64,000 nt of DNA. Source: the human T2T-CHM13v2.0 reference genome, Homo sapiens. Positions 5,519 to 60,120 of the stretch are shown piece by piece. Position numbers and translations under genes: made by a program. Location of the stretch: the NCBI RefSeq assembly GCF_009914755.1, contig NC_060927.1; one strand, 5' to 3'. Each line of letters begins with the position of its first letter. The stretch's first letter is position 1. The notes under the pieces were generated by a model, which did not search any database, was not told the DNA's origin, and was given only the letters and a program-made list of their open reading frames with translations.

Positions 5519-5824
5519 TCATTATTTTCACATTTTCTTTCTCTTGTCTGATTGCTCTAGCTGGGACAAGAAGTGGCCTTTGAGCTGGACCTTCAAGCAT
5601 ATTTTGGAAGTCTCTGGATGAATAAAAAGATTGTATTAATCTCTTTATTCATTCTGAGATTGAGCAGAATACTTAACAGTCTCTATTAATCAAGTTATCC
5701 ATTATAATTTAACTAATGACTTTCTGTACTCTTATTTTTTAAAAAAGATGTTTATTAGCTTTCGTTTTCATGTTTATCTAAAGCTTCAATTTTCATCTGT
5801 ATTAACAAGTGAATTGTAGCTCAT

Positions 5825-6045
5825 CAATGTGAACAGACTGGATTAAATCTCACTCTGCCACTCTCTAGCTTTGCAATTTGGGTAAACCATTTAATCTTCC
5901 TAAGACTGTTTCCTCAGGTATGATATAGAGTTGATATCTTTACTTGATGGGGTTTGTGATTATTTGAGATATCATCTGTAAAGTTCTTTTTAGCACAGTC
6001 CTTGGAACATGATATGTACTTGATAAGTAATTATTACTATTAATA
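5825..6045 (+). mobile_element. MIR SINE
   Basis: 'cagactggattaaatctcactctgccact...tttaatcttcctaagactgtttcctc...ttagcacagtccttggaacat' follows the MIR core and tail. Confidence 0.75.
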
Positions 6046-6999
6046 TTAGACATATCGAGGTGCCTATGCTCATAATGAATGATTACCTAGCTTCTTACTT
6101 TAAGAGAGGTATAGAAATTTTATAAACAGATTAGGAGATATGTAATCATGAAAATTTGGAAAATAGGAATTTTGAAGCATGGAGGCTATTTAAAAGCCCA
6201 TTTATTTGGTAAGAAAAATTAGAATTACTATTGCAACAAAAAGCTCATTCCACAAAAAATAAATCCCTTCACTGAAATATGTATTATACACTAAGATGAG
6301 TGCTGATATCTTCTTTTTTAAGAACAAGACTGTTATTTATCGATTTTGATTACATAAGACGAGTCTTTCCAGAAATAAAGACAGCATAACTGACCTCTTA
6401 TATATTTTTCTAATTCTGTGTTTCTATAACTATAAAGAAAGCACTGCTGACACTTAGTCAGTAGTAACTCTAAATTCATGAATCTTTTAAATATAGGTAA
6501 GTTTTTAGGCAATGATATAGAAATGGTAGAAAGCCTTAGGCTCTGTGTACTCAAGAGAAAATTGTGTCCCATGTATTTTTAATAAACTAAACAGTGCTAT
6601 TTCCATGAAAAAAATAAGGTATGCTAAATAAGAGTGACAGGAGTTCCAAGGGGAAGGGCTGAAAAAAGATAGAATTTGGCACTTTCATTTTTCAATCGAC
6701 TGAAGGAAAAAATGTAAGAATTTATAGTAAGAGTAGCAGATTGTATTATATCAAAACTGGGGAAGCTTCTGATTTGGGTATTTTGCATAAATTTACATCA
6801 TAATTTGAAAGTCCTATCTGCAGATATTTAAAAGGAGCTTAATTAATATAATTTTTTGCTGTTGTATTTAATTCTAATATTCAGGTACGATACACAAAAT
6901 AAAGATTATATTTTGTCACATATCAAACATGTTAGATTGTCTGGGTCTCAGTTTCTGCAACTCCAGGATGAAATGGTTGACATAAAGAATCCTTAAGTC

Positions 7000-8922: not shown

Positions 8923-9489
8923 TTAATGGTAGAGATCTTTCACCTCCCTGGTTAGCTTTATTCCTAGGTATTTTATTCTTACTGTGGCTATTGTAAATGG
9001 GATTGCATTACTGATTTGCCTTTGAGGTCGGATGTTATTGGTGTATGAAAATATTACTGATTTTTGTACATTGAGGTTGTATTCTAAAACTTTACTGAAG
9101 TTGTTTATCAGTTCTAGGAGCGTTTGGGCAGAAACTATGGAGTTACCTAGGTATAGAATTATATAATTGTGAACAGTGACAGTTTGACTTCCTCTTTGCC
9201 AATTTGGATGCCCTTTATTTTCTTCTCTTGCCTGATTGCTCTGGCTAGGATTTCCAAGTACTCTGTTGAATAGGAGTGGTGAGAGTGAGTATCCTTGTCT
9301 TGTTTTAGTTCTCAAGGGAAATGTTTCCAGCTTTTGTCCATTCAGTATGGTATCAGCTGCGGGTTTGTCATAGATGTCTCTCTTTATTTTGAGGTATATT
9401 CCTTCGATGCCTAGATTGTTGAGGGTTTCTAATATGAAGGGATGTTGAATTTTATCAAAAGCGTTTTCTGCATTTATTGAAATTATCAT
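8923..9489 (-). pseudogene. Decayed L1 ORF2 reverse-transcriptase fragment
   Basis: Translation matches L1 RT ([21 protein letters not shown]) and is interrupted by frameshifts. Confidence 0.9.
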
Positions 9490-10187
9490 GTAGTTTTAGC
9501 TATTATTTCTTTTTTATGTGCTGAATCACATTTGTTGATTTGCATATGTTGAACCAACCTTGGCATCCCAGGAATAAAGCCTGCTTGATTGTGATAGATT
9601 AGCCTTTTATGTGCTGCTCAATTCAATTTGCTAGTATTTTGTTGAGAATTTTTGCATCTGTGTTCATCAGGGAAGTTTTTTTTTCCTATTGTGTCTCTGA
9701 CAGGTTTTGGTGTAAGAATGATGCTGGCCTCATAGAATGAGTTAGGGAGGAGTTCCTCGTTCTCAATTTTTGGAATAATTTTAGTAGCGTTGGTACCAAC
9801 TCTCCCTTGTACATCTGGTAGAATTTGACTGTGAACCTGCATGGTCCAGGGCTTTTTCTGGTTCATAGGGTTTTTTTTAAATTACTCATTTAATTTCAGA
9901 ACACATTATTGGTCTGTTCAGGATTTCATTTTTTTATGGTTCAATCTTGGGAGGTTTTATGTTTCCAGGAATTTATCCCTTTCTTCTAGGTTTTCTAGTT
10001 TGTGTGAACATAGGTGATTGTAATAGTCTTAGGGTTTTTTTGTGTGTGTTTATATAGGGTCATGGTAATGTTTTCTGCCTCAAGGATTTGTCTAATGCTG
10101 TCAGTGGGGTGTTGAAGTCTCCCACTATTATTGTGTGGGTAACTAAGTCTCTTCATAGGTCTCTAATACTTGTTTTATAAATCTTGA

Positions 10188-10240
10188 TATGTATATATTT
10201 ATACACATATATATATATACACACACACATATGTATATAT
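10188..10240. repeat. (TA)n/(CA)n compound microsatellite inside L1
   Basis: Direct reading of the sequence. Confidence 0.85.
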
Positions 10241-11360
10241 TTAGGATAGTTAAGTCTTCTTGTTGAATTGAACCCTTTATCATTATGTAATGCTCTTCTT
10301 TTCCTTTTTGATTGTTGTTTGTTTAAAGTTTATTTTGTCTGAAATAAGAAGAGCAACTCTTACTCTTCTTTGTTTTCCATCTTGATTGATCTTTCTCCAT
10401 ACTTCTACTTTGAGCCTGTGTGTGTCACTGCACGTGAAATGGGTCTCTTGAATATAGCATATAGTTGGGTCTCACTTCTTCATCCAACTTGCCACTCTGT
10501 GCTTTTTAAATGGGGCATTTGTATAATTTATGTTCAAGGCTAATATTGATATGTGAGGATTTGAGCCTGTCATCGTGTTGTTATCTGGTTGTTATATAGA
10601 TTTGAGTGTATGGTTGCTTTATAGTGTCAGTAGGCTATGTACTTAAGTGTTTCTGTATTGGCAGATAATGGCCTTTTTGTTTCCACATTTATCACTCCCC
10701 TAAGGACCCTCTTATAAGGCGGGTCTGGTGATAAATTCCCTTAGCATTTTCTTGTCTGAAAATTATTTTATTTCTTCTTCACTTATGAAGCTTAGTTTTG
10801 CTGGATATAAAATTCTTGGTTGAAATTTCTTTTAAGAATGCCGAAGATAGGCCTCTCATCTCTTCTGGCTCGTATGATTTCTGCTGAAAGGTCTAGTGTT
10901 AGCCTGATGGGGTTCTCTTTGTTTATGACCTGCCCCTTCTCTTTAGCTGGCTTTAGTATTTTTTCTTTCACACTGACCTTGGAGAACCTGAAGACTATAT
11001 GTCTTGGGGACAGTCCTCTTGTAGTATAGTATCTCACTGGGGTTCTCTGAATTTCTTGAATCTGGATGTAGACCTTTCTAGCAAGGTTAGGGAAATTTTC
11101 ATGGATAATATCCTCAAATACATTTTCCAAGTTGCTTGCTCTCTTTCCCTAATTTTCTGGAAGGCCGTTGAATTGTAGGTTTGGTATCTTTATATAATCC
11201 CACATTTCTTGGAGGTTGTATCTATTTTTTAATCCTTTTTTTCTTTTATTTTGTCTGACTAAGTTTATTTGAAGAACTAGTTATTTAAGTTCTGATATTC
11301 TTTCCTCAGCTTGGTCTATTCTGCTGTTAAAACTTCTGATTGTGTACTATTATGAAATTC

Positions 11361-14398: not shown

Positions 14399-17300
14399 CA
14401 GCACCTGCTTGCAGGGCAGCCTCAGGTAGTGCCCTTGGGGACTGCACTGTAGCTCCTGTGCTGGCTGACAGTGCCTTACCAGTGGGAGCTCCAGTAGGGT
14501 GGCCCTTATGGCCACATACCAGCCAGCCTGCTCTTTCTCCACACTGTAGCTTCCCCTAGGCCCATGGCAACCCCCACATTGTGTTGCTGGTGTGTGTGTG
14601 CATGGGCAGGCCTTTCTCTTCCTTGCCTTGCTTGTGAACGTGTGTGTGTGTGTGTGCACCCTGCCCTATTGCTGCTGTGGCAAGAGTACATTCCACACAC
14701 CTCTACCACTGGACCTCCATTGTAATCAAAGCCTTGGCAGGCACAGAGCAGGTCAATCCTACCCCCTCCCACACCCTGCCCTTATACCAACAATGCCATG
14801 GGAGTAAAATTAGGCACAGAGAACAGTGGACTTTCCAGCTCCCTAAGTGACCACCCCAGCTTTCAGTGCACAGAGAATGCACACAGACCTGTGCCCAAGT
14901 GCAGACTGCTCACGAGTTGTGCTGCCTCTGCCATCATGGTGAATGTCCACATAGAGGCAGGCACTCCAGCACCCACCAGCATCCTGTTGCAGCCAAAGAG
15001 CGTTCAGCCTTCTGTGCTGCCACAGCCACTGCAGCTGACATGTACAAAAAGGACAGATCCCATTGACACTGCACTGTGAAATGCATTGGCTGACACCACC
15101 CATCAGAGTGTAGTGACCAGTGGTCTGGGAAGCACCTTTCCCAACTCCAGTGCAGTGGACTCGTGATCTCGAGGAGCCAGAGAACAAAGTCAGGGCCTGA
15201 TATAAGTTCCCCAGAGTTAAGAGTACACAGTCCAGGAGTTTGGAGCTAAGCATTGCTCCCCTACAGTCTTCCAGAAATGAAGCCAGTTGGCTGATTCCAC
15301 CTTATATCACAATCAAATTTTCAAGGTCATCAAATAGGAAAGGAAAAAACACCCAAAGGTCAGCAGCTTCAAAGATTGAAGAAACATCAGCCCACAAAGA
15401 TGAGAAAGAACCAATTCAAATACTTCTTTGACAACTTAAAAAACCAGAGTGCCTTCTTCCCTCCAAAGTTCCATACCACCTCTACAGCATGGGATCTGAA
15501 CTGGGCTGAAATGGTTGAAATGACAGAAACAGAATTCAGAATATGGATAGGACTGAAGATCATTGAGATGCAGGAATATGTTGAAACCCAATACAAGGAA
15601 ACAAAGAATCACATTAAAATGATACAGGAGCTGACAGGCAAACAAACAACCAGTATAGAAAAGAATGTAACTGACCTGATTGATAGAGCTGAAAAGCACA
15701 CTACAAGAGTTTCATAATGGAATCAAAGAATTAATAGCAGAACAGATAAAGTTGAGGAAATAATCTCAGAGCTTGAAGACTGGCTTTCTGAAATAAGACA
15801 GTCAGTCAAGAATAGAGAAGAAAATGAAAATGAATGAACAAAACTTCCAAGAAATATGGGATGACATAAAGAGACTGAATCTACAACTCATTGATGGCCC
15901 CGAAAGAGATGGGGAGAGAGTAAGCACTTTGAAAAAGTATATTACTCATGAGAACTTTCCCAATCAAGCTATGGAGGCCAACATTCTAATTCAGGAAATT
16001 AGAATGGGCTTACAGAGAAGCCCAGTAAGATACAGCACAAGAAGATCATTCCCAAGATGCATAATCATCAGACTCTCCAAGGTCAAAATGAAAGAAAAAA
16101 TGTTAAAGGCAGCTAGAGAGAACAGTCAGTTAACCTACAACGGGAAACCCATAAGACTAACAGTGGACCTTCCAGCAGAAACCCTATAAGCCAGAAGAGA
16201 TTGGGGGCCAATATTCAACATTCTTAAAGAAATGGAATTCCAACCCCAAATTTCATATCCAGCCAAACTAAGCTTCATAAGTGAAGGAGAGATAAGATCC
16301 TTTTCAGACAAGATAATGCTAAGGAAATTTGTTACCTCTAGACCTGCCTTACAAGAGCTCCTGAAGGAAACACTAACTATGGAAAGGTAAGACCATTACC
16401 AGCCACTACAAAAACACAACTAAGTACATGGACCAGTGACACTATAAAGCACAACAAACAAGTCTGCATAATAACCAGGTAACATCATGATTACAGGATC
16501 AAATCCACACATGTCAATACTAACCTTGAATGTAAATGGGCTAAATGCCCCAATTAAAAGGCACAAAGTGGTAAGATGAATAAAGAACCAAGACCCAGTG
16601 GTATGCTGTCTTCAAGAGACCCATCTCACATGCAATGACATGCATAGGCTCAAAATAAAGAGTTGGAGAAAAATTTACCAAGCAAATGGAAAACAGAAAA
16701 AAGCAGGGGTTGAAATCCTAATTTCAGACAAAAGAGACTTTAAACCAACAAAGATTAAAAAAAGACAAAGAAGGGCATTACATAATGGTAAAAGGTTCAA
16801 TGCAGCAAGAAGGCTTAACTATTCTAAATATATATGCACTAAACACAGGAGGAGCCAGATCCGTAAAGCAAGTTCTTAAAGACCTTCAAAGAGATTTAGA
16901 CTTCCACACATTAATAATGGGAGGCTGTAACACCCAACTGACAGTATTAGACAGACCTTCAAGGCAGAAAATTAACAAAGATAGTCAGGACATGAACTCG
17001 CCACTGGATGGACCTAATCAACATCCACAAAACTCTCCACGCAAAAGTAACAGAATATACGTTCTTCTTACCACTACATGACACATACTCTAAAATTAAC
17101 CACATAATCAGACACAAAACACTCCTCAGCAAATGCAAAAGAACTGAAATCATAATAACAACTCTCTTAAATTGCAGTACAATCAAATTAGAAATTAAGA
17201 CTAAGATATTTACTCAAAATCATACAATTATATGGAAATTGAATAACCTGCTCCTAAATGACTTTTGAATTAATAATGGAATTAAGGCAGAAATCAAGAA

Positions 17301-18640
17301 GTTCTTTGAAACTCATGGGAACAAAGATACAACATAACATAGTCTGTGGGACACAGTTAAGGCAGTGTTAAGAGGGAAAGTTATAGTACTGAAGGCCTAC
17401 ATCAAAAAGTTAGAGAGATTTCAATTTAGCAACCTAACATCACAACCAACCCCAAAGGTAGCAGAAGATAAGAAATAACCAAAATCAGAGCTGAACTGAA
17501 GGAGACTGAGACACACAGAAAAACTATTCAAAAGATCAGTGAATATAAGAATTGGGTTTTCAAAAAATGTGTAAAATAGATAGACGTCTAGATAGATTAA
17601 TAAAGATGAAAAGGTCCAATTTAACAAAATTAGAAATGATAAAGTGGATATTATCACTGACCCCACAGAGGTACAAACAACAGAGAATATTATGAACACC
17701 CCTATACACAAATACTAGGAAGTCTAGAAGAAATGAATAAATTCTTGGACATATACACCCTCCCAAGACTGAACCAGAAAGAAATAGAATCCCTTCACAG
17801 ACCAATAATGACCTCCAAAATTGAATCAGTAATAAATAGCCTACCAACCAAAAAAAGCCCAGGACCAGACAGATTCACAACAAAATTCTTCCATTTGTAC
17901 AAAGAGAAGCTGGTACCATTTCTACTGAACCTATCCCTCCAAAAAATGAGGAGCGATTCTTCTCTATCTCATGCTATGAGGCCAGCCTCATCCTGTACAA
18001 AAACCTGTCAGAGGCACAACAAAAAAAGAGAAAACTTTAGGCCAATATCCTTGGTGAACATTGATGCAAAAATCTCCAACAAAGTATTGGCAAACTGAAT
18101 CCAGCAGCACATTAGAAATCTTATTCATCACAATCAAGTAGGCTTTATCCCCTGGGATGTAAGATTGGTTCCACATATGCAAATCAATCAATGTGATTCA
18201 TCACATAAACAGAACTAAAGACAAATACCACCTGATTATCTCAATACATTCAGAAAAGGCTTTTGATAAAATTCAATACCCTTTCATGTTAAAAACTCTC
18301 AATAAACTAGGTATTCAAGGGACATACCTCAAAATAATAAGAGCCATCTATGACAAACCCATGGCCAACATCATACTAAATGGGCAAAACCTGGAAACAT
18401 TCCGCTTGAAAACCAGCACAAAACAAGGATGTCTTCTCTCACCACTTCTATTCAACATAGAATTGGAAGTCCTGGCCAGAGCAATCAGGCAAATAAAGGG
18501 CATCCAAATAGGAAGAGAGAAAGTCAAACTATCCCTGTTTGCAGATGACATAATCCTTTATCCAGAAAACCCCATAGTCTTGGCCCAAAAGCTCCTTAAG
18601 CTGATAAACAGCTTCATCAGTCTCAGGATAGAAAATCAAT
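14399..18640 (+). mobile_element. Long L1 (L1PA15/16-like) with 5' UTR, ORF1 and ORF2 EN to mid-RT; 3'-truncated
   Basis: ORF1 pieces 15376-15717 and 15824-16189 (ENFPN..PRCIIIRLSK); ORF2 start ~16488; EN piece 16598 (CCLQETHL); RT piece 18193-18657 (SLFADD). Confidence 0.94.
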
Positions 18641-23929: not shown

Positions 23930-24100
23930 GATAATACCTTCTGGAAGTTATATATTAATAGTCTCATTTTACAGATGAGAAAGTTGAGACACTGAGATGT
24001 TAAATAACTTGCCCATGTTACAGATTAGGGACATAGCAGAGATTCAAACTCAAGGCTGTCTGATGACCAAGATTATGTTCCATCATACCGCAGTGCCTTC
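23930..24100 (-). mobile_element. MIR SINE
   Basis: 'ctcattttacagatgagaaagttgagacactgagatgttaaataacttgccca...gattcaaactcaag'. Confidence 0.85.
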
Positions 24101-24455: not shown

Positions 24456-26209
24456 GAACTACATAGAGTGGACTTATGAGAAAAGCCAGCTGGGGCTCCA
24501 GGAGCATCACGGAGCAAAGAGAGGTATTACTATCTGTGGGGTAAAGGGAAAGACGTCAAAAACCTGATTGGGGCACCACTCAGGGAGAAAAAGGAGAGAA
24601 ATCTGTACCTACTTTACAGATGTGTCTGGGGATATTGTCTACATGAAATTAATTACCGCTCCCAGCTCAGCCTTTACAGCTCCATGACCTTACCAGTAGT
24701 TACAAGGGTATTAATATACTTGTAGCTACTTACCTGCATACTTGCTTTCGCATCTAACGCAGCTCTGATGTAGCAGGTATTTGTGGTGTCAAGAGAACAA
24801 TAAGAACATGACTAAGATTCAGTCAGAATCACCAGTTTACTTAATTGGTCCTCATTTGACATTATAGGTTCCCATATTGAGGCCAGTCCATACATCTTTA
24901 TACAAAAATTTGAGCTTAAAATTTAGCCTTTTAAGAAACATAGAATTCATTTTAATCTGGAAATTTTTATTTTAGGAACTCCTAGACCAAATGGGAAATA
25001 ATTATAGCACAGTAATACAATCTTTGATTGTTTTTGTGTGTTATTAAAATGAGCTGCATAATAAACATACATAAGGCAGTTGTATTGTAATTGAATATAA
25101 AATGGTTTGCATGACTAACATGAAATTTTTTTCTAAATATTCTTAATATTGTTTTATTTTTGGTTTATAAATGTCATTAGTATCAAGTGACAGCAAATAT
25201 ATGGGTTAATCTGGCCTGGGAATTCACAAGAAATAAAGTGCAACTAGTAATTCAAGTTATTTTCTCTACACAGTGGTAATGTTCATTAAATTACAAATAA
25301 CTATTATGGAGTAGTGAGGGGGTTTGCAATGGAATTTAAAAGAGCTGTTGCACTCATGAGTATAATTTTATCCCTTGCAAATTATGGCATGTCTGTTTAT
25401 AGTAATAAGGTATTATAGAGATCACTGAGTCATAGGTAGTTCACATGGGAAGATGCTATAGTTTTCTAACCTTTTCCCAGTTGATGTTACCATTGGAAGC
25501 CAGAGTTATAACATATCAGTGACAACACAGGGCCATGCTCCCCCTCTTACCCCCATGACTCCCTAAATCCATGTAACTGAGTCCGATTGCCAGATATGCA
25601 ATTCTCATGTAGAATGAGTGCCCCATGGTTTCAGACCCTCCACTCGTATCTCTTTGGTTATGCAACACCTCCTCAAACAAGCAATAGCATCAGAAAACCA
25701 GCTTGCTTTCCTTCGAGTGAGGTGTTGGTTTTGTCTGTGCTTGAGCTTTTCAGGCCTCATTTTCACTATAGGACCAGTGAATAACTCTGGATGGCAGATA
25801 AATCATAGGGTGGAGAGAAAGGAGTAGAAGGCTTCAATGATGATACCCTGTTTCCGTCAATGACAGGTAAGATTTTCAAACTGAAGCTGGTGAAAGACTT
25901 GAGTAAGTTTATTTGCAAGTCAAGCCTGTTTGAGGTATTCTGTTACTGGAATATCCCCAGGCTTCATTGGTCTGTGGTTACAAATAAAGCTGGAATATTA
26001 ATAACATTCCAGTCTTGATGGCTTACTAACTCCAACTGCGACAGAAGCTATCAGGCCCCTTCAAAATTCCCTCTCCCAAGACTTTTCAGTTGTCCCTGGA
26101 GTATGTCCCATATGAGCTCTCCTGCAGGGCACTGCCGCTTTCTCACCAGGTCTCCACTGAGTACTTCTGTCTCTGCTGACAACCACTGATGTGTGTCTGT
26201 TGTCACAAG

Positions 26210-26718
26210 TAGTATCAGTTTCCTATTGCTACCATAACGAATTATCACAAAGTTTATGGTTTAAAATAATAGAAAATCATTATCTTATATTTCTGGAGGT
26301 CAGAAGTGTAAAATGGGTCTTATGGGGCTAAAATCAATATGTTGGCGGAGCTGCGTTCCTTCTAGGGGATTAAGGGGAGAATCTACTTCCTTGCCTTTTA
26401 CAGCTTCTAGAGGTTGCCTGCATTTCTCGGCTCCTGGACCCATCCTCCATTTTCAAAGTGCATCACTCCAAGCTCTGCTTCCATTTCCCCATGGCCACAT
26501 CTTTTTCTGACTCTTAACACTTCATCCTCCTTCTTACAAGGATTCTTATAATTAAACTGGACCCTCTTGGAAAATCTTGGGTAATCTCCCTACCTCAAGA
26601 TCCTGAGCTATTAGTAAATCATACCTGCCAGGTCCCCTTACCCTGTAAGGCAATATATTCACAGGTTCTGGGAATTAGGATGTGGAAATCTTTGGGGGCC
26701 ATTATTCGGCCCACGACA
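26210..26718 (-). mobile_element. MLT1 (C/D-like) MaLR solo LTR
   Basis: 'tatcagtttcctattgctaccataac...ttctggaggtcagaagt...ttccttgccttttacagcttctagagg...attcacaggttctggg'. Confidence 0.88.
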
Positions 26719-27860
26719 GAAGCTACCTGCCCATACATGGATGCTGCCATTTATCTCCACCAATGCCCTAGAATTCTTACAATACAGGAGTGGTGCTGGG
26801 TGCCAAAAACAAAAAAGAGGGTGGGGAGAAACAGGCATCACCCCGCTCTATGCATACCTCAGAAGCACATGCTTCAAAGTCCCCGTGAGAAAAGTTGTTC
26901 AGCTTCTACTTATGTTCCTGTCAATGAAGAGCTCTGATGAAGTTCATAGGCCTAGGCTGGGGCCATTCATCATGTGCTCTTCTCCATCCACTATACTTTA
27001 TTCCTGCAAGTGAACAGTCCCACATACAACCTCCTCCTGGTAGACCTTCTAATGTGGAGAATCAACACATGTATGTAGAGCTTGGGCATAGTCAACTCCT
27101 CAGTACCAACATGCCTAAATCTTAGCTCAGGCCTGCGTTCTCTTGATATAATTCATTAATTTGAGAATTCACTAATCCATCTTAATTCATTCCTGAAAAA
27201 ACTCACCACTAAATGAAAAGCCATTATATTAAAAATAAATGTTCTCATTAAATTTAATGAGAAAAATTACGATACATCCCATCTCAACCAGCCTCCTCCT
27301 AAGATATTGAAAGCATGCAATACTTGCACCTTCCTCTATGACATTCATATTAATAAATTCACATACAGTTCATTCACAATATGTGTTAAGATGGACCTGT
27401 AGTGGGGCTAGAAGTTGGATGGATGAAGAAAGAACTGCAAAGAGTGGATAACATTATAAATATAATGTTTAAAACTACTGAAAACAAGCACAGTTAACTC
27501 CAGCTTAAAAACATCTTCTGTTCATATAAATAATTGATATAATATTATGCACATTAGTGGCATAATCACTTTGGTAGATTCTCTGCTACCTCTGATAGAA
27601 GAATTTAATTAGCATAATTCTAATCAGAATGTAATATATAATGAAATCTGAACCATAAGGTAAAATATCACTTTTTATATTTATTTAATGGGGTTTGGGG
27701 TGAAAACCAGCTATATCAAGATAAAAAAGAATTGTTGGAAAAATGATAAAACTTTTAAAAGGACGATATTTACTTTTGCTACATGAAGAAAGCCTATATT
27801 TATTAGACACTTATTTATGCCAAGCTCAGGAATTTTAAGATAAAGGAAACAATCCCCATA

Positions 27861-28182
27861 ATGAGGAGATTCGCTGGTTAATGGGAGAGGAAGTATTAAA
27901 ACTGCACAGAAACAAACCAAACCATTAATATGGTTATCAGGGAATGAATTGCTGAGCAATTTATATTTTTTTCATTCAAAATATTGATTTTAAAATATCA
28001 TACAGCGAACCTGCGTAACTTCTATAAGTAGAAACACCTGTAATTTATCTTTACATTTTCTACTTAGTGTAAGTTAACAACAAGCTACAATTAAGCCACT
28101 GAGTGCATCCAACACTCATCTCAAATTAAAACTATCTCTTATACCTCAGAATTGGCACTGTATAATTATAAGCCACATATCT
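27861..28182 (+). repeat. Left arm of long inverted repeat (322 bp)
   Basis: Reverse complement of 29115-29435; by hand alignment 15 substitutions and one 1-bp indel. Confidence 0.97.
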
Positions 28183-28314
28183 AACTTAAAGCTGCTCTGT
28201 CATATCTCCTCCAGCACAGGCCTGACTCTCCAAATCTTTAGGCTTTCTTGAAGGGGATATGATTCTAGTTGGCTCATGGGTTCTGATAAACTCCTTAGTA
28301 ATCCTAAGGGACTT

Positions 28315-28440
28315 ACGGAATGTTTGAATTGGAAAGGGCCTTGGAGCTTAAAAGTAACTTATAATTACAACTGGGAAAATAGAGGCCTGGATCAGTGAGT
28401 GATATGAGCTTGGCAGTAATGTGAATTATTGGCACCGTGA
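28315..28440 (-). mobile_element. MIR/MIR3-like fragment in the inverted-repeat spacer
   Basis: 'gaatgtttgaattggaaagggccttggag...ttacaactgggaaaatagaggcctgga'. Confidence 0.5.
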
Positions 28441-29114
28441 CTCTGGGCAGAAATTACTCATGTGCTTCTCTTAAATAAGGTGCCAGCTTGGGCTTCATGG
28501 GACCTACAACAAGAGATCCTAAGATGCCTAGCACCAGTCAACCTGGATCAGAATTAATTAACAGCAAAAATCCAGTGACTTCTTCCTGTACTTTCCGTAT
28601 CTCTCAAACTCTGCTGCCAAGACCAGTTCCAGCAGATTGGAGAATATAATATAACCCGTGGCACTACCCTCAAATTTGGCTCCTGTTCTGGCTTTCTGGG
28701 CAGGCCAGCCACCTTTAGAAGTGACCACATCTTTCTGATGTCTCATCAGTCGGCAGTCTGATACTTGGTTGCTCAGTTCATATTTTCTCAGCACAGATCA
28801 CTTTGGTCTGTGACTTAAAATTTGGGCTCTGGCATATTATTCTGCATCTCTCTACAGCCTGGACTTGCTTCTGGGCCTAGTCTCTCCTGGCTAGACAAAG
28901 ATATTAGTGAAACAAACAAAAGCATTGCCCTTGAGCTGCCTTTTTCTCCTCAGCTTTGCTTCTACACTTCACCAAGTTGTTGAATCTCTCCCTGTCCCCG
29001 GTAACATTAGACGTTGGGGTTGGAGTACTCTTTTTTCCATTGCGTGCAAAACTTCCAACTTTCTCCTTCGAAGTTAAGGGTGATAAGTAGGGCACTCCAA
29101 AACATAATCTTAGA

Positions 29115-29435
29115 AGATATGTGGCTTATAATTATACAGTGCCAATTCTGAGGTATAAGAGATAGTTTTAATTTGAGATGTGTGTTGGATGCGCTCAGTG
29201 GCTTAACTGTAGCTTGTTGTTAACTTACACTAAGTAGAAAATGTAAAAATAAATTACAGGTGTTTCTACTTATAGAAGTTATGCAGGTTCACTGTATGAT
29301 GTTTTAAAATCAATATATTGAAAGAAAAAACATAAATTGCTCAGCAATTCATTCCCTGATAACCATATTAATGGTTTGGTTTGTTTCTGTGCAGTTTAAA
29401 TACTTCGTCTCCCACTAAGCAGCGAACCTCCTCAT
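29115..29435 (-). repeat. Right arm of long inverted repeat (321 bp)
   Basis: 'agatatgtggcttataattatacagtgccaattctgaggtataagagatag...' is the exact reverse complement of the inner end of the left arm. Confidence 0.97.
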
Positions 29436-29477
29436 ACATCCCATAGCTTAATCACTCAGGGATAAGTTTAAAGCTGA

Positions 29478-29675
29478 AAGAAACCTGCGTTAAAATTCCA
29501 GATCCCCCCAGTTGCTTGCTGTGTAGCTTTGTGACTTTGGCCAAAATTTAGTTTCTCCATCTGCAAAACAAAGATTATAATAGCACCAACTTATGGAGCA
29601 TAGTCATTGAAATGATGCAGGTAAAACCCTTAGATTAGGTCCTGACATGTAGTAAGAACTCAACAGGCAGTAGCC
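29478..29675 (+). mobile_element. MIR SINE
   Basis: 'tagctttgtgactttggccaa...tagtttctccatctgcaaaac...ataatagcaccaactta...cctgacatgtagtaagaactcaa'. Confidence 0.8.
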
Positions 29676-32304
29676 CTGAGTATTCTTTTCTTCACTAGCT
29701 CCCCAAATGCCACACTGGGACTCTCATTTATGGGATCCGTGTGCTGATATTCAATGTGCATATTTAGTTTGTACCAAATTATATTGTAACTGATAATTAG
29801 ATGTTGACATTCGTGGTATCATATCAGCACCATTTTCTGGTTTTAAGATCTGTTTTAATATTTTTGCTATTTGTGGTTATTTTTCTTAATTTTGTTGAGC
29901 TTCAAAGAGGGCAGTGATTTTTAAATAGGCATTCTCTTCATCATCTTTCCCAGAAGTACTGCCAAATTATTTTTCTATTTCTAATACACTATTCTGAACC
30001 TTTTCTCTTAACATGAGTGCCAAATTTGCTTTGAATAAAACATGATACTAAAAACTACATAATACTAAAAAACTAGGTGTAAAGAAAAAAATGTAGAGTT
30101 TGTCACCTTATTTTATTTAAGATAGATGACCAAAATGAGTTTTTAATTTTCTTTTTCCTTTTTAAATCTTGGAAATCCCACATAGGTCAAATCCCATGAT
30201 TCAAACATTTTTTTTTTCTTGGCTTCCTGGCTGTAATGCAATGATTTGATTTCTGCTTAGCTGATATTTCTTTTATCAATTCTCACATTGCTTCTCATGT
30301 GACAAAATAAAACTCTGATTTTTTTTCCCTTTTTTGCAGAACAGGAAATAACCACTTGGCCCTGTTTCTGGTGGTTTTGCATGTACCAGAATGTCCTAGA
30401 GAAATATAACCCATTACAAACCTCATAATGTCAGGGGAAGATGGATGGCCTTGAATACTTCGAACAATGTAAATTGAGCAGCATATAGAATATGTTACAT
30501 TTTGAGCTAAGCTCTATTTTCTGGAAAAAAAGAAAATATGGCTAAAATATTTCATAGTGCAAATCAGCCTTGATTCCTTCAAAATCATTCAAAGAATTGT
30601 ATGTGCTGATAAGAACAAGTTCTTTGCTTTTTAATGATGGTGTATATGAGTAATTCAGAGCCTTATTTCAAGATTACTGGTCAATCTATGCCTTTTACTG
30701 ACATTAACCTTCCTGTAAAATGAGACCATTTAAGTTCACCTTTCAATTGACTGGCTGACATTATAAGTCACCTATTCTGAGATTTAATCAAGTATAAACT
30801 GAAAGTCTTCTCTAGGTCACGTTACCTAGTCTAGTAAAATTTGTTTGAAACAAGGCCCTTAATGCTGATCATTGAGCTCACACTGCCCTGGGTTCATGAT
30901 TTCCTTAACTCCTTGCTTTCTGAAATCTTTATTTGCTTCACTTTTCTTTGTTTCCGTTTTTCCCCATCACCCTGTGCAGGAAAGGTGAGAGCTAACTCTA
31001 TTGAGTGTGTTTGTTGCCATGGTGAAGAAAATAGTACGATTCCACAGTTAATAAAGAGTATCAGGGTGAAGAAGATATTTCTTCCAAGCTCCCATGATTT
31101 TCATTTCATTACAGTGGAACTAAAGAGCACTGACAGGCCTGTTGAAGCAAAATCTTATGTTAGATGTAGTTCATAATGTCATGCTATTCACTCAGAATAT
31201 AGTACTTTCCTGGAGAAATTATTTAAAATGCTTGCAATGAAGAAATGTTTTAAAAGGGACTTCATGTGGTCATTTACTTCCTAACTAAAAAGGAATTGGT
31301 ATTCTACAGATTTCCACTTTGAGAACTGGACAGTAACAGAGTAATATTGTTGCAAAATCCCTTATTAATTCATGCTTCAAAAAACGATTTGTGGCTTTTC
31401 TAAAGGAAAATGTCTTCATTTAGCTGTCCCATCTAAACTTGGGTGTGGAAAGCATGAAGAACCTATCTTTCACAAGTACAAAGGGTAATGCATTTTTAGT
31501 AATGTATGTGGTTCAGAACAGAAAATCTTTTCTCTTATCCCTTCTCTCTCATCTCTTTCCATCTCTTCTACTTGCTCCTCCTACTCACCCCAACCTCTCT
31601 TCACATGCACTTATAGATTCACAAGAGCCAAGTGTGTGAGGAATTTTTTACCAGAAGAGAGAGAAGAAAGTAGCTAAGGTCTAACAGTGTAGCTGAAAGT
31701 CTTTCCCCCATGAATTTTTTATTTGTTAGGTAATTCAAAACACCACAGCTGAACTTGTGTAAGAGGTCACGTCAACTTCACAATCTTTCATTAAAATGGA
31801 AGCAAATAGAAAGCTTTCTTAATTGCATTTTTTCTACTTATCTAAGTCTAATTTACTATGATGAAATACACTTTGGTGAGCATTCCATTGTTTCAATGAA
31901 GAAAGAAAATAAAGAAAAATAATTTTTAAAAACGTAGATCGAAGAAAAGTAAGAATATTTGAAAATAGCAAATTTCCAACTTTTAACTCCATTGTTAGGT
32001 TGCCAGATCCTTTATGAACACTGAGATTGTTAGAACTGCAAATAAAGTAGAATACAATGTTGAAGTGGCTTATGTTGAAGTCTGCTGATAGACAACACAA
32101 AGGTATGTTATGTAAGAAATTTTCTTTCTCAATATAGTTCAAATAGTAGAAAAAAGTGGAAAAAGAAAGATGAATGCATTCAAGGCTTTCTTTAGAGGAA
32201 AGAAAGTTAGCTTTAAAAATAGTAGACATTTTGTCAAGAAGTTATGTTAGAATAGGTGCTATTGAGATGGATATGTGGGAAAGTGGAAGAAGTGGTAATT
32301 GTGG

Positions 32305-32415
32305 AGTACCCATGCTGTGCTATGCACCTTATACAATTTATCTTGTATAATCTTCGTTTATTGTCATCCTGAGAAGGTGGGTAGCAATGTGCACATTTTC
32401 ACAAATAAAGGGAGA
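32305..32415 (-). mobile_element. MIR fragment
   Basis: 'ctgtgctatgcaccttatac...catcctgagaaggtgggt...cacattttcacaaataaa'. Confidence 0.5.
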
Positions 32416-33189
32416 AAAGAAATCTTTTTCTCAAGCTCCTGGCATAAAACACTTGAAGTCAGGTCCATAGAATGTCATACCTTGTTGTCTGCCCCCTGCT
32501 GATAAGGGAAGCAAAGGTTTCCAGTATTTTGGAAAAAGGGGTATTCGAAGAGAAATTATAGAGAGAGCAAATTCATAAATATTGCCTGGTTAATTCCATT
32601 TTATTAATATTTCTTATGAAACAAAATAGATGTTTCGATGGTCACATTACCAGGGAATTTTATTTTTTCAGCTGGACATTGCAAGTCCTTGTGTAATCAT
32701 CCTCCAAATCTCACAACATCCCTTCCATTTAATTATAATCTATTGACTGTATTGTTCCGTTTTACAGACAATGACAATATTTATTTGCATCCATTAAAAA
32801 ATATAAATCTGAGCGTTTTTAAAGATCACATCAAACTTGAGAGAAAGACTACTTCAAGAGAGAGAAGAAATAGAAGACATGGACACTGCCTCTTAAGAAC
32901 ATAAAATCTAAACGTTGAGGCAGGTCAAACTAAGAAATATAAATGCATTTGAGACTCATATAGTGAAGCACAACACAAATGTAGACTGATAGGAATTTCT
33001 TTGCAGATAAGGCCCGAAGATCCAGACTGATGATAAGCCTAAAGCTGGTGGAGGACAATCACTACTGGATTCTACCACAGAAGGCTGCAAACACGGCTGA
33101 GGATTTTTACTAAAGTTACAAAAGTAGGGGCTTTTAGTAAATTTTGTTTCATAGGCAGTGTATTATCCAATTAGAAGTAAGCTAATATT

Positions 33190-33589
<400 letters not shown>

Positions 33590-34097
33590 TTAATATCTAC
33601 CTTCTATAATAGAACTTTTTTACAATAATTGATACTCTCATTTATTCTCTTATTAAAATATATTTATTGCATGTCTCCTGTTTACTAGGCATTGAGTAGG
33701 GAACAAAGCATGCTGTTTTTATATTTTAATATTGAACATTATAGATCGTAAGAGTCTAAAACAAGGCAACAGAGTTTTCGAAAGTGATTTTCAAAGCACT
33801 AATTCTGCAAGATGCTCCCCATCCCTAAAGGGTGCCACAGCCAAATCCATTTGGTAAACATTGCAATGACTGAGAAAGCCTATGGGAAAGAAGTCCCTCC
33901 AGCTTTGTCAAACCCAAAACACTTTTTTTTTTTAAACCAAGGAACATTGATTAATATCCTGTTGCATGAAACATCCTAGGTGAGATGTCAGCTCAGAGCA
34001 GGCCTATTTTGGAGTGCTAATTCAGCAGGTCACAGATGTGAGAACAAGTAGGCAGATGCCATATTCTGGAAGAACTAGCAGAAGAGCAGAAAAATCT

Positions 34098-34267
<170 letters not shown>

Positions 34268-34374
34268 TAAGTATGTTGCCACTCTGCCACTAAGAGATCA
34301 AGCACATAGTTATTTGGAGTAAAATCAACTATGGTGGAGGATGTTGCTACATAGGCTCTAAAGTCATAGAAACT

Positions 34375-34513
34375 CCTTCCTTCCTTCCCTCCCTCCCTCC
34401 CTCCCTCCCTCCCTCCCTCCCTTCCTTCCTTCCTTCCTTCCTTCCTTCCTTCCTTCCTTCCCTCCCTCCTTCCTTCTTTCCTTTTTTTTCTTCCTTCCCT
34501 TCCTCCCTCCCCC
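34375..34513. repeat. (TTCC)n/(CTCC)n pure polypyrimidine tract
   Basis: ~140 nt consisting of C and T only. Confidence 0.95.
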
Positions 34514-34559
34514 AGGAAAGATACATACCTATAGGGAGCTATAATCTAGTTACTCATAA

Positions 34560-34830
34560 TTAATTCTTTCCAACAAGGTATATGAATAGTAAACTTTTTC
34601 AGGTTTCCCATATCTAAAAATGTCTTATTTTACTTTCACAATTTTAGGATAATTAGGCTGAGGATAGAATTCTAGATGCAAAGTAATGTTCCATCAAAGC
34701 ATTGAATATATTGTTACATTCCCTTCTAGCATCTGGTGTTGGTAATGAGAAATCTGAAATTCTGATTTGTTTTTTTTTCTTTTGTTTGTTAATAATTTCT
34801 CTCTCTGAAAACTTTTAGAATTTTTCTGGG
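34560..34830 (-). mobile_element. Ancient L1M ORF1 fragment
   Basis: 'atctaaaaatgtcttatttt...gatagaattctaga...cttctagcatctggtgttg...gagaaatctga'. Confidence 0.6.
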
Positions 34831-34964
34831 CATTTATCTCCCTGTAGTTTTATCTATTTTACAGCTGGATTTTGTTTATTTTAGTGTACTCTCTTTCACC
34901 TTGATCAATCTTGCCAGAGTTTTGTGTTATTTAGTATCCTAAAAAAAAAAAAGCTTAGACTATC

Positions 34965-35255
34965 CTAAAAGCTAATAAACATGTAAAAAGATACTCAACA
35001 TCATTCAGAGTCATAGAATGCAAATTCATTTAAAATGAGGCATTATTATGCAGCTGTTAGACTGACAAAAATCTGAGTAATGCCAAGTGTTGACAAGAAT
35101 GAGGAAAAACTGGTAACCTCAAGCACTGCTGATGGTAGCGTAGGCTGGGGTGGCCCTTCGGGAGAGCAATTTCACATTTGGCACTAAGTGTACAGACTCA
35201 GCTTATATCTATCCATCATATAACAATTCTACCTCTGGGTATATCCCCCTCCCCA
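34965..35255 (+). mobile_element. L1ME-like ORF2 C-terminal fragment (resumes ~36100-36260)
   Basis: 'taataaacatgtaaaaagatactcaacatcatt...gccaagtgttgacaagaatgag...caattctacctctgggtatatcc'. Confidence 0.7.
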
Positions 35256-35289
35256 CCAGCACAACACTTTTATGGACAGATGGACAGAT

Positions 35290-35375
35290 GAGAGAGAGAG
35301 AGAGACAGAGAGAGAGAAAGAGAGAGAGAGAGAAAGGGAGAGAGAGAGAGAGAGAAAGGGAGAGAGAGAGAGAGA
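35290..35375. repeat. (GA)n polypurine microsatellite
   Basis: Direct reading of the sequence. Confidence 0.95.
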
Positions 35376-35784
35376 ATAAGACCACAGGGATTATATGAGG
35401 ATTTTCATTGCATTGATATTTGTGGAGGAGGAGATTAACTTGAGGACATAGATTGACAAGATGTGGTGAACCCACATCCCACATTCACAGGGATATATAT
35501 ATAAACAACAAAAAATACATTAAACAGAACAGAATTGTTGCCATGGTTGTTAGGGTAAAGAGGTCTGGGAGTGAACAAAGGAGAAAGCATGAAATCAAAC
35601 AAACAACGAAAGGTTTCATTTTTGTTAATCCTTTCCTCTCTGTTCATTTCCCCACCTCTCTCTCATCTATCTATCTGTCTGTCTATCTACCTACCTATCT
35701 ATCTAAGACAAAAAGATCTCCCTCTCCTCTCCTTTCTGTCTTCTAACCCTACCCCTCTCTCTCTCTTTTTGTTTCTCTCTCTCA

Positions 35785-36099
35785 GATCATTATCGTTCTG
35801 GGGAATCCACCTGCCATGGTGAGTAGCACTACAGAGAGGCCCATGCAGCAAAGAATTGAAACCTCTAAACAATAGCCATGTAAGTAAGTTTGGAAATGGA
35901 TTCTTAGCCTAACCTTAGGATAACTGTGGCCCCAGGCAATAGCTGGACTGGAATCTTATAGAGATTTTGCACCAAAACCGCTTAGCTCATCTGCTACCAG
36001 ATTCCAGGCCCACAGAAGCCCTGAGATTAAAAAAATGTTTGAAGATTTAGGCTACGAAGTTTTGGATAATTTGTTACAAAGCAGTATATAAGTAATACA
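35785..36099 (+). mobile_element. MLT1 (F-like) LTR 3' part
   Basis: 'ctgccatggtgag...gagaggcccatg...cagattccaggcccacagaa...aagttttggataatttgttacaaagcagtatataagtaataca'. Confidence 0.75.
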
Positions 36100-36260
36100 C
36101 CTAGGAAATCAACTCTTAGGTACATATCCCAGGAACACTTGAACAGGTGCCTAAGCATGTTCCCTGAAGCACTATTTATGGTACAAATAGATGGAGACAA
36201 ATAGATTTTCATCACTATCAGAATAAAATAAGTAAAATATGAAAAATTCAAATAACATAA

Positions 36261-36773
36261 TAAAACCGTGCCCCAAAGAGTTAAAGAAAATAGTAACTAA
36301 TAGAAATCCTTGAGTTTGCAGGATAGTAGATCAGAAAGCAAACAACTTGTTGAAACGTTGAGACACTATCTGCTTGTAAGATAACAAAACTGGCTACACT
36401 CAGTTAGAACCAATATGGCCAACTGGAGTTTATGCAGAATGAGCTTGCAGACATCACATGTTTTATATGAACTCACCCTGAATTTGCACATGAGACCCAT
36501 GAAGAAGCAGGAAAAAGTAACTGCACCCAGAAGGAACCTCCAGGCCTCCTCTTTCCTTCCACAAATTACCTACTAATTCTCGGACTCCACCCTCTAAATC
36601 TTTTCTAATACAATTACTGCCTTAAAATCAGCAGGGGGAGACAAATTCGAGCTAGTCTCCTGTCAGAATTCTTGGTCGACTTGCAATAAAAAGCTTCTCT
36701 TTGCTCAAGAACCTGGTGTGATAATATTGGCTTTTAGTGCATTTGGGCAGCAAGCATCATTTGCTTGGTAACA
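36261..36773 (+). mobile_element. ERV1 solo LTR, MER34-family-like
   Basis: Starts 'taaaaccgtgccccaaagagttaaagaaa', has AATAAA near 36686, ends 'ggtaaca'; 4-bp flanks ataa/gtaa; interrupts an L1ME. Confidence 0.75.
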
Positions 36774-38549: not shown

Positions 38550-38791
38550 TAGTGTTCAAAAGTATAGACTTTGCAGCCAGAGTGCCCATTGTTTAGATTC
38601 TGGTTCCTCAACTTGGTTATATGGCTTTGGGTAAGTTTGTGATTGCTCCACGTCTTGGACTTTTACCTGTACACACCTCAGATTTTTACCTATAAACTAG
38701 AGATGGTAATAGTACCTTTCTCACAGGACCAGTGTAAGCCGTACATGAGTTAATATGTAAAGTACCTTGGAAAGTACCTGACTCATAGTAA

Positions 38792-38795
<4 letters not shown>
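38550..38795 (+). mobile_element. MIR SINE
   Basis: 'agtatagactttgcagccaga...gatggtaatagtacctttctcacagg...atgagttaatatgtaaagtacc'. Confidence 0.75.

Positions 38796-38797
<2 letters not shown>

Positions 38798-38856
<59 letters not shown>
38798..38856. repeat. (TA)~29 microsatellite
   Basis: Uninterrupted dinucleotide run. Confidence 0.97.
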
Positions 38857-59126: not shown

Positions 59127-59949
59127 TGAAATAGAATAATTACAGACTGATGAAATTGGCTGCAACGTAGAAGTTCTTTGACTCCTCACAGAGACCAATT
59201 GATTGGCAGCAAAATGAGAACAGCCTAGAAGCAGCCCAGTGCTGAATTATAACCATACCCAATGCTATGGGTATAACTTTTCCTGTGGAAAAGGCTGAAA
59301 GGACAAATGACATGATGGCTGAAAGTATAAACCAGCCTCCTAGTAAGCAGCTGTGATATTACCATTTATTGGGACCACTTCGTCACAGTCTATCTATCTG
59401 TCAGAGGTAACTGATTGAACATTTCTTTACTCCATAATTAATTATTAGATGCTGGGGGAAGAAAAGATTATGATAGGCTTTGAGTGTTAGAAAATAAGAA
59501 AGCCTATGGTCCCTTTTCTCAGAGTCACAGATTGAAGGGGTGAAATAAAGCATTTGATTTCATTTGGACACTCTTGAGATAGCAGAAAGCTAACCTTTTG
59601 TTCTGAGTTATCTCACTCTTTTTCATGGCCAGGATCTAGAGGCCTTTCATTTCCAGAGAAATTCTGAAATACCAAGCCCTGAGTTTTGTGTGACATTCAA
59701 GCTTTGAATATCTTATGTGTGCTTATTAGAGTCAAGAGGTGCTTTTCATGGTATTTAGAAGTCCTTAGCCCAAATTTTTCTGTCTTTTTTCTTCTGCCTA
59801 AGTTGAAGAATAGCCTTATTTGGTATTCTGAGGTTTGACATTGCTCATTACACTTTTTCTTCTGTTGTGTGGCCAATTACAAGCTTGCCTCAAGCCCAAG
59901 AATTGTAGGTGTCAGTTGTATTGAGAACTGTTGCAGGGAAAATTGCATA

Positions 59950-60120
59950 ATGTAGGAAAGCAGACAAGAGGGGCTGACTGGCCAGAGCCCCAGCTTTATC
60001 TCTGTTCTATCACTTGCTGATTGGGTGGTTTGGGGAATAATACTTCAATTCTCTGAGACCCAGTGTCCTCATTTGTAAAATGAGGAATTTGGACCAGATC
60101 ATTTCAAAGGTACCTTTAGG
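59950..60120 (+). mobile_element. MIR/MIR3 SINE
   Basis: 'acttcaattctctgagacccagtgtcctcatttgtaaaatgaggaatttggaccagatcatttcaaagg'. Confidence 0.8.

What the first reader, a model, noticed from the sequence alone, without database searches (positions are those of the whole stretch)
27861..29435. 322-bp, ~95%-identical inverted repeat of apparently unique DNA enclosing a 932-bp spacer: candidate recurrent micro-inversion or long-hairpin locus
Seen: 27861-28182 is the reverse complement of 29115-29435. By hand I count 15 substitutions and one 1-bp indel. I recognise no transposon in the arms, so this looks like a local inverted duplication rather than two independent insertions. Established: closely spaced inverted repeats can flip the intervening DNA by non-allelic homologous recombination, and such inversions are easily missed by short reads. 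Inference: the spacer 28183-29114 may exist in both orientations among individuals or apes. If transcribed, the arms would form a ~320-bp non-Alu dsRNA stem, a possible ADAR, Dicer or PKR/MDA5 substrate.
Basis: partly seen in the sequence, partly recalled or inferred. Interest (0 to 1): 0.8.

Follow-up and report, generated by a model that had tools for sequence, protein, structure and literature searches.

The report
Small fixed inverted duplication, lncRNA intron
A 322-base stretch of low-copy human DNA is present a second time, flipped, about 930 bases away; it looks like an old one-off copying error rather than a jumping gene or a working switch, and is an ordinary example of a well-catalogued kind of repeat.

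Summary
Arms 27861-28182 and 29115-29435 are reverse complements: 306 of 322 aligned columns identical, 15 substitutions and one 1-bp indel, with sharp ends and a 932-bp spacer.

In the whole T2T genome the arm matches only itself and its partner, and the spacer only itself. That search detects repeat families at about 75-80% pairwise identity. It misses ancient ones such as the MIR next door.

My best reading (about 0.7) is a single local inverted duplication, made by a replication or repair template switch roughly 10-40 Myr ago. It is now a neutral fossil in an intron of predicted LINC02083 (+) and within the span of LINC02006 (-).

A 10-12-nt direct match flanks the whole unit (81 of 20,000 random pairs score as well). 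This keeps an old long-TIR transposon alive as a rival (about 0.1).

No inversion is listed here in one T2T-based call set of 44 samples. The longest perfect identity tract is 66 nt.

Transcribed RNA would fold into a stem of about 310 bp, but transcription was not tested.

This is an ordinary member of a known class, of low interest.

The parts
27861..28182 (+). Left arm of the inverted repeat (322 nt, 32% G+C)
   Evidence: the only other genomic match is the right arm
28183..29114 (.). Spacer, 932 nt, 43.8% G+C. Single copy in the genome, with no ORF carrying a Pfam match, no tandem repeat and no internal symmetry.
29115..29435 (-). Right arm (321 nt), the reverse complement of the left arm at 95% identity
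27849..27860 (+). Left copy of a direct match that abuts the unit (ACAATCCCCATA). It is a possible target-site duplication or a chance match.
29436..29445 (+). Right copy of the direct match (ACATCCCATA): 10 matches and two 1-nt gaps against the left copy
29460..29726 (-). Context: a MIR-type SINE directly to the right of the unit. It is not part of the repeat.
   Evidence: own profile from 87 genomic copies, E = 6.7e-10 in the window; Smith-Waterman score 100.5 with 0 of 500 shuffles reaching it

Best explanation
This is a fixed, one-off local inverted duplication. During replication or break repair a growing strand left its template and copied about 322 nt of nearby sequence in reverse complement. 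It then returned, either inserting the flipped copy 932 bp away or copying back through the spacer so that the spacer was inverted as well. Both outcomes are foreseen by the four-point template-switch model. The event is dated by arm divergence to roughly 10-40 Myr ago. Since then both arms have drifted apart neutrally. The locus now sits in intron 1 of the predicted lncRNA LINC02083 (+ strand) and within the span of LINC02006 (- strand). It has no demonstrated function. Its only built-in properties are that an RNA spanning it can fold into a stem of about 310 bp, and that the arms could rarely recombine to flip the spacer. Shown: the structure, its copy number at moderate sensitivity, its fold energy, and the absence of coding or known RNA families. 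Inferred: the mechanism, the date and the neutrality.
For: The arms are sharply bounded reverse complements, with 306 of 322 columns identical. The arm occurs twice and the spacer once in 3.1 Gb. The same tool returns 52 matches at 68-84% identity, from 22,099 first-look candidates, for an unrelated interspersed repeat of the window. There is no further symmetry or similarity in the flanks or within the spacer. The 16 differences are spread as expected by chance on three of four statistics (P = 0.16, 0.18, 0.09; the fourth gives 0.02, post hoc), so patchy gene conversion is not indicated. JC distance is 0.048, giving about 24 Myr at 1e-9 per site per year per lineage, and 9-68 Myr over the Poisson and rate ranges I tried (the rates are recalled). 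There is no Pfam match in 12 of 12 ORFs apart from one sub-threshold hit at E = 0.09. There is no Rfam match inside the unit and no tandem repeat. In the literature, the four-point model yields an inverted repeat with a native spacer (31% of events) or an inverted spacer (23%) (PMC5453318, passages). Inversions flanked by inverted duplications are an accepted class of complex variant attributed to FoSTeS/MMBIR (PMC6286558, passages).
Against: No outgroup sequence was available, so neither the pre-event state, nor which arm is the copy, nor the ancestral spacer orientation is shown. The junctions carry only 0-1 nt of microhomology today, which is less than replication-based models usually show. 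The copied piece (322 nt, or 1,254 nt if the spacer was copied too) is far longer than the tens of bases typical of published short template switches (filters of at least 10-14 bp; PMC5453318). A direct 12/10-nt match flanks the whole unit, and only 81 of 20,000 random anchored pairs reach its score. A template switch does not predict this, but a transposon insertion does. The genome search cannot see ancient repeat families, so calling the DNA unique holds only down to about 75-80% identity.
Confidence: 0.7

Rival explanations
1. An old non-autonomous DNA transposon with long (about 320-bp) terminal inverted repeats. It inserted as one 1,575-bp unit and made a 10-12-bp target-site duplication, and its arms were later homogenised by gene conversion.
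For: ACAATCCCCATA (27849-27860) and ACATCCCATA (29436-29445) abut the two outer ends of the unit exactly. Only 81 of 20,000 random anchored flank pairs and 133 of 20,000 local comparisons score as well. No comparable match flanks either arm alone (scores 2.5 and 0.0 against 7.0). The long TIR plus a 9-11-bp duplication resembles Mutator-like elements (recalled, not tested). The genome search is blind to ancient families.
Against: There is no second copy of arm or spacer at a sensitivity that finds other families at 68-84% identity. Any family would therefore have to be ancient, yet the arms are 95% identical. The flank motif differs by two indels in 12 nt while the arms show one indel in 322, so the two ages disagree unless conversion is invoked, and the differences show no clear patchiness. 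There is no transposase remnant and no subterminal repeats. [quoted passage not shown]
Confidence: 0.1
2. A recurrently toggling micro-inversion: the arms recombine (NAHR) often enough that the 932-bp spacer exists in both orientations among humans or apes.
For: The arms exceed the 200-bp, 80%-identity thresholds used for recombination-prone pairs (PMC11794170 abstract). [quoted passage not shown]
Against: No row starts with 15619, 15620 or 15621 among the 31 chr3 rows of the T2T inversion table with 44 sample columns (PMC10150506 supplement). The longest perfect identity tract is 66 nt, which is short of the roughly 130-230 nt or more recalled as needed for efficient mammalian homologous recombination. 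Recurrent inversions are enriched for longer flanking repeats. Arms that recombined often would be expected to be more alike than 95%.
Confidence: 0.05
3. A functional long-hairpin RNA locus: the transcribed repeat is kept because its stem feeds ADAR editing, Dicer or dsRNA sensors.
For: MFE is -765 kcal/mol on the + strand and -758 on the - strand, with 309 and 312 of 322 arm bases paired arm to arm. The arm duplex is -504.6 kcal/mol against -135 +/- 6 for 20 shuffled partners. Both strands lie inside annotated lncRNA spans (hub annotation). A published survey reports 7.8% of human intergenic inverted duplicates as expressed, with those enriched for stable hairpins (PMC5398296 abstract).
Against: The stability follows automatically from 95% identity. 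There is no Rfam family in the unit. No paper mentions LINC02083 (0 hits). The position is intronic, and divergence looks like neutral drift with no sign of arm maintenance. Expression was not tested.
Confidence: 0.04
4. An assembly artefact of the T2T-CHM13 sequence.
For: Chimeric palindromic reads are a known long-read artefact (recalled).
Against: The arms differ at 16 positions and are separated by 932 nt of unique sequence. An artefactual fold-back would be a near-perfect palindrome without a spacer (inference).
Confidence: 0.01

Closest known systems
Inverted duplicates of mammalian genomes as catalogued with Inverted Repeats Finder (Chen et al. 2017, PMC5398296), and the maps of intrachromosomal inverted pairs of at least 200 bp and 80% identity (Fernandez-Luna et al. 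2024, PMC11794170)
   Same: The locus has reverse-complement arms and a spacer under 1,000 nt. It falls inside both sets of search parameters: arms 10-10,000 nt with spacer 0-1,000 nt, and at least 200 bp at 80% identity or more. 4,315,271 such duplicates are reported in human and 627,791 inverted pairs in T2T-CHM13.
   Different: The median identity of those pairs is 84.2%, and the 200-400-bp peak corresponds mainly to Alu and other SINEs. This pair is 95% identical and made of low-copy DNA. I did not see this locus itself in either catalogue: the full lists are not among the files held, and I listed the two held files of PMC11794170 without opening them.
Template-switch mutations, four-point model (Loytynoja and Goldman 2017, PMC5453318), and at larger scale FoSTeS/MMBIR complex variants with inverted duplications (dupINV, dupINVdup; PMC6286558)
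   Same: A nearby segment is copied in reverse complement, creating an inverted repeat with either a native or an inverted spacer, and hairpin potential arises as a by-product.
   Different: Published short events involve tens of bases, whereas this one involves 322 nt or more. Clinical complex variants span kilobases to megabases and show at least 3 bp of microhomology at all eight junctions studied. Here only 0-1 nt remains. The ancestral state is unknown.
Long-TIR DNA transposons (Mutator-like elements; human Ricksha family, recalled only)
   Same: Long terminal inverted repeats enclose a non-coding core, and a 10-12-nt direct match lies at both ends.
   Different: No other family member is detectable. 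The arms are too alike for an ancient element. The flank match is imperfect, with two indels. There are no transposase remains.
Inversions bounded by inverted duplications from staggered breaks (Ranz et al. 2007, Drosophila; recalled, not read here)
   Same: The model would give arm, inverted spacer, then inverted arm, which is exactly the present layout.
   Different: It needs an outgroup to show that the spacer is inverted. No second small inverted duplication is seen at the other breakpoint.

Membership tests
Inverted duplicate (IRF-type definition of PMC5398296) | Two reverse-complement arms of 10-10,000 nt | tested here: met
   Arms of 322 and 321 nt, 306 of 322 columns identical
Inverted duplicate (IRF-type definition of PMC5398296) | Spacer of 0-1,000 nt | tested here: met
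   932 nt
NAHR-prone inverted pair leading to a polymorphic inversion | Arms of at least 200 bp and at least 80% identity | tested here: met
   322 nt at 95%; thresholds from PMC11794170
NAHR-prone inverted pair leading to a polymorphic inversion | Both spacer orientations observed among haplotypes | tested here: not met
   No row at chr3:156.19-156.21 Mb among the 31 chr3 rows of the T2T call set with 44 sample columns. This is one data set only.
NAHR-prone inverted pair leading to a polymorphic inversion | A long uninterrupted identity tract for efficient recombination | tested here: inconclusive
   The longest tracts are 66, 66, 40 and 33 nt. The threshold is recalled, not taken from a call.
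Class II DNA transposon (long-TIR, Mutator-like) | Terminal inverted repeats | tested here: met
   Met formally: the arms are the termini of the 1,575-bp unit
Class II DNA transposon (long-TIR, Mutator-like) | Target-site duplication abutting both ends | tested here: inconclusive
   A 12-nt versus 10-nt match with 10 matches and 2 gaps; 81 of 20,000 random anchored pairs score as well
Class II DNA transposon (long-TIR, Mutator-like) | Other copies of the family in the genome | tested here: not met
   Arm: 2 first-look candidates. Spacer: 1. The control repeat gave 22,099 candidates. Ancient families cannot be seen.
Class II DNA transposon (long-TIR, Mutator-like) | Match to a curated repeat model (Dfam/Repbase) | not testable with these tools
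Template-switch mutation (four-point model) | A segment identical to the reverse complement of nearby sequence | tested here: met
Template-switch mutation (four-point model) | A sister or outgroup sequence showing the state before the switch | not testable with these tools
   No other primate genome is held
Template-switch mutation (four-point model) | Microhomology at the switch points | tested here: inconclusive
   0-1 nt at every junction under each of the models tried; it may have eroded since the event
MIR SINE spanning the left boundary (my own lead) | Significant alignment of 27740-27990 to a MIR profile | tested here: not met
   175 of 500, 222 of 500 and 57 of 500 shuffles reach the observed scores, and the nhmmer scan of that segment (run with --max) reported no hit. 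The right-flank control gave 0 of 500.
Known structured RNA family (Rfam 15) | Covariance-model match inside 27861-29435 | tested here: not met
   The 8 matches at E <= 1 in 25000-36500 all lie outside the unit

The most novel reading that the evidence does not exclude
The duplication created, in one step, an ape- or catarrhine-specific long-hairpin RNA locus from non-Alu DNA. Transcribed within LINC02083 or LINC02006 pre-RNA, its stem of about 310 bp would be a natural ADAR/Dicer substrate. It may also occasionally flip its spacer. This would be a datable example of a large template switch giving birth to a structured RNA.
Probability: 0.04. Interest if true: 0.55.

Novelty: new member of a known kind. 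Interest (0 to 1): 0.15.

Why it matters
If the reading is right, the locus is one more neutral fossil of a copying error, useful mainly in three modest ways. First, it is a clean, datable, non-Alu example of an inverted duplication much longer than the short template switches described so far. Second, it is a simple test locus for whether 300-bp, 95% arms ever mediate inversion in pangenome data. Third, it is a place where short reads and variant callers may mis-map. It opens no long-standing question.

Tried and rejected
1. MIR SINE across the left boundary. By eye, 27790-27930 looked to me like a MIR running from the left flank into the left arm, which would have made the left arm the original. 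I tested this with a MIR profile built from genomic copies. It was not supported: the nhmmer scan of 27700-28000, run with --max, reported no hit (its own statistics show that only 451 of 1,504 residues, the right-flank control, passed the first filter). Smith-Waterman scores were reached by 175 of 500, 222 of 500 and 57 of 500 shuffles. The lead is dropped.

2. First profile attempts. Searches gave a weak model. One search timed out. The model was contaminated by flanking Alu sequence and was discarded. One search masked Alu before rebuilding.

3. Positive control for the genome search. Using the right-flank MIR as a control showed the tool finds only the query itself. This limits what 'unique' means here.

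4. Rfam, ORFs and Pfam and tandem repeats found nothing inside the unit.

5. There is no weaker symmetry beyond the arms, between the flanks or within the spacer. The best of those comparisons, the spacer halves in direct orientation, was reached by 4 of 200 shuffles with a 27-nt match, and I treat it as noise.

6. Clustering of arm differences is not significant on three of four statistics.

7. Supplements and other sources:
- PMC10028934 (primate structural divergence) has no readable file.
- PMC12350158 gave only chr1 and chr4 rows of a mobile-element table, and the file is cut, so it is not a test.
- The two held files of PMC11794170 were listed but not opened.
- Pace and Feschotte 2007 is not held.

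Full report
**Observation.** The window holds a genuine inverted repeat at exactly the stated coordinates. The repeat finder reports it as two abutting rows split by one indel. A global alignment of 27861-28182 with the reverse complement of 29115-29435 gives 306 identical of 322 columns. There are 15 substitutions (8 transitions, 7 transversions) and one 1-bp indel. The similarity ends abruptly at all four ends. Of the 22 inverted pairs of at least 100 nt within 10 kb in the whole window, only the two rows of this repeat reach 95%. The other 20 are 72-91% complementary.

**Copy number, and what the search can see.**
- In the 3.1-Gb assembly that holds the window, the left arm matches only itself and the right arm (E = 1.3e-163 and 4.8e-141; 2 first-look candidates, both scored).
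- The spacer matches only itself (1 candidate).
- I calibrated the tool twice. An unrelated interspersed repeat of the window (9261-11022) gave 22,099 first-look candidates and 52 matches at 68-84% identity. Families whose members are about 75-80% alike are therefore seen.
- The 285 nt to the right of the unit returned only themselves. Yet a MIR profile built from genomic copies calls 29480-29706 (- strand) MIR at E = 6.7e-10, with 0 of 500 shuffles reaching the alignment score. To build that profile I anchored copies on a recalled 20-nt core motif (1,585 exact genomic hits, 0 for the reversed control), fetched 90 loci and kept 87 copies after masking Alu.
- So 'unique' here means no relative of primate age. 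An ancient, strongly diverged family cannot be excluded with these tools.

**Anatomy.**
- The arms are AT-rich (32-33% G+C), like the flanks (34%). The spacer is 43.8% G+C, which is within the local range of 24-47%.
- No stop-free stretch exceeds 86 codons.
- Of the 12 ORFs I scanned against Pfam, 11 have no hit, and one has a sub-threshold hit at E = 0.09, 12.8 bits against a cut-off of 26.8.
- There is no tandem repeat and no Rfam match inside the unit.
- There is no weaker symmetry beyond the arms, and no similarity between the flanks or between arms and spacer.
- The 16 differences are not clearly clustered (P = 0.16, 0.18 and 0.09; one post-hoc statistic gives 0.02).

**A lead that failed.** By eye I read the left flank plus the start of the left arm as a MIR element. 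That would have shown the left arm to be the original. The profile test does not support it. The nhmmer scan of that segment, run with --max, reported no hit, and 175, 222 and 57 of 500 shuffles reach the observed scores. Which arm is the copy therefore remains open.

**An unexplained detail.** The 12 nt before the left arm (ACAATCCCCATA) and the 10 nt after the right arm (ACATCCCATA) match in direct orientation, with 10 matches and two 1-nt gaps. Both abut the unit. Only 81 of 20,000 random anchored flank pairs from the window do as well (133 of 20,000 for unanchored local matches). Nothing comparable flanks either arm alone. This is what a target-site duplication around the whole 1,575-bp unit would look like.
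- I give the transposon reading about 0.1, not more, because it needs an ancient family with no detectable relatives together with arms that are still 95% alike.
- The putative duplication is also more decayed (two indels in 12 nt) than the arms (one indel in 322 nt).
- That combination requires later gene conversion, for which one search gives no clear sign.
- The youngest human DNA transposons are multi-copy and are dated to at least 37 Mya (PMC2268245, abstract and passages). Pace and Feschotte 2007 is recalled; only its reference entry was seen, and the paper is not held.

**Most likely origin.** I favour a single template switch in replication or repair.
- The four-point model of Loytynoja and Goldman (PMC5453318, passages) produces exactly two matching layouts. 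One is an inverted repeat with the spacer left as it was (31% of their high-confidence events). The other is an inverted repeat with an inverted spacer (23%).
- The same logic at larger scale (FoSTeS/MMBIR) is invoked for complex variants with inverted duplications beside inversions (PMC6286558, passages).
- The staggered-break inversion model (Ranz et al. 2007, recalled) gives the second layout too.
- Against a textbook replication-based event, the junctions today share only 0-1 nt, and the copied piece is far longer than the short events described. Only an outgroup can settle the type.

**Age.** The JC distance between arms is 0.048. That is about 24 Myr at 1e-9 per site per year per lineage. 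It ranges from 9 to 68 Myr across the Poisson interval for 15 substitutions and rates of 0.6-1.5e-9 (the rates are recalled). I therefore expect both arms in the great apes and a one-arm state somewhere among Old World or New World monkeys.

*Inversion.*
- The arms pass the length and identity thresholds used for recombination-prone pairs (PMC11794170, abstract and section 6).
- 132 of 183 resolved balanced inversions have inverted repeats of at least 200 bp (bioRxiv 10.1101/2021.12.20.472354, passages).
- The same source says recurrence goes with longer repeats, and that about 85% of inversions under 2 kbp come from L1 twin-priming.
- The longest perfect tract here is 66 nt.
- The T2T-coordinate inversion table of PMC10150506 (supplement search only; 31 chr3 rows, 44 sample columns) has no row at this place.
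- Frequent toggling is therefore unlikely but not excluded.

*dsRNA.*
- An RNA of either strand across the unit folds with 309 or 312 of 322 arm bases paired arm to arm.
- The arm duplex is -504.6 kcal/mol against -135 +/- 6 for 20 shuffled partners.
- This follows from the identity and says nothing about expression.
- According to the hub annotation the unit lies in intron 1 of the predicted LINC02083 and within the span of LINC02006, none of whose exons lie in the window.
- No paper in the library mentions LINC02083 (0 hits).

**Comparison with what is known.** Inverted duplicates of this geometry are catalogued wholesale. One survey reports 4,315,271 in human, with arms of 10-10,000 nt and spacers of 0-1,000 nt (PMC5398296, abstract and sections 6 and 12). 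Another reports 627,791 inverted pairs of at least 200 bp and 80% identity in T2T-CHM13 (PMC11794170). This locus stands out from the bulk only in being low-copy DNA at 95% identity. Widely spaced inverted repeats are reported to be destabilising mainly when exposed in long single-stranded DNA (PMC10164571, abstract only).

**Verdict.** The 'local inverted duplication' reading is the best-supported one. The inversion and dsRNA readings are untested possibilities with some evidence against the former. The locus is an ordinary new member of a known kind, and its interest is low (0.15).

Noticed in passing
window 9261-11022 and 16037-18460: Five rows (72-84% complementary) line up as one large inverted pair of an abundant interspersed repeat, with about 5-8.7 kb between the matching parts. 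The left copy has 22,099 first-look candidates genome-wide and matches at 68-84% identity. It looks like two old copies of one family in opposite orientation, probably a LINE (recalled guess, not tested).
   Followed up: partly
window 29460-29726 (- strand): A MIR-type SINE lies directly against the right end of the inverted repeat. Its predicted 3' end falls within a few tens of bases of the junction at 29435/29436.
   Followed up: yes
window 33310-33361, 33312-33459, 34117-34260, 34140-34199: Sub-threshold Rfam matches to mir-1268 (67.6 bits against a gathering score of 83), mir-3135 and Metazoa_SRP. They lie in stretches that my Alu-contaminated profile also picked up, so they are most likely Alu-derived look-alikes and not genes.
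   Followed up: no
window 38690-38810, 23932-24083, 5816-6048, 59939-60101, 60789-60886: Further MIR-type copies found with the home-made profile at E < 1e-5.
   Followed up: no
tool behaviour, own-genome DNA search: The whole-genome DNA search returns only the query itself for a 285-nt ancient SINE copy, but thousands of candidates for a repeat with about 75-80% pairwise identity. 'No other copy' from this tool should not be read as 'not a repeat'.
   Followed up: yes
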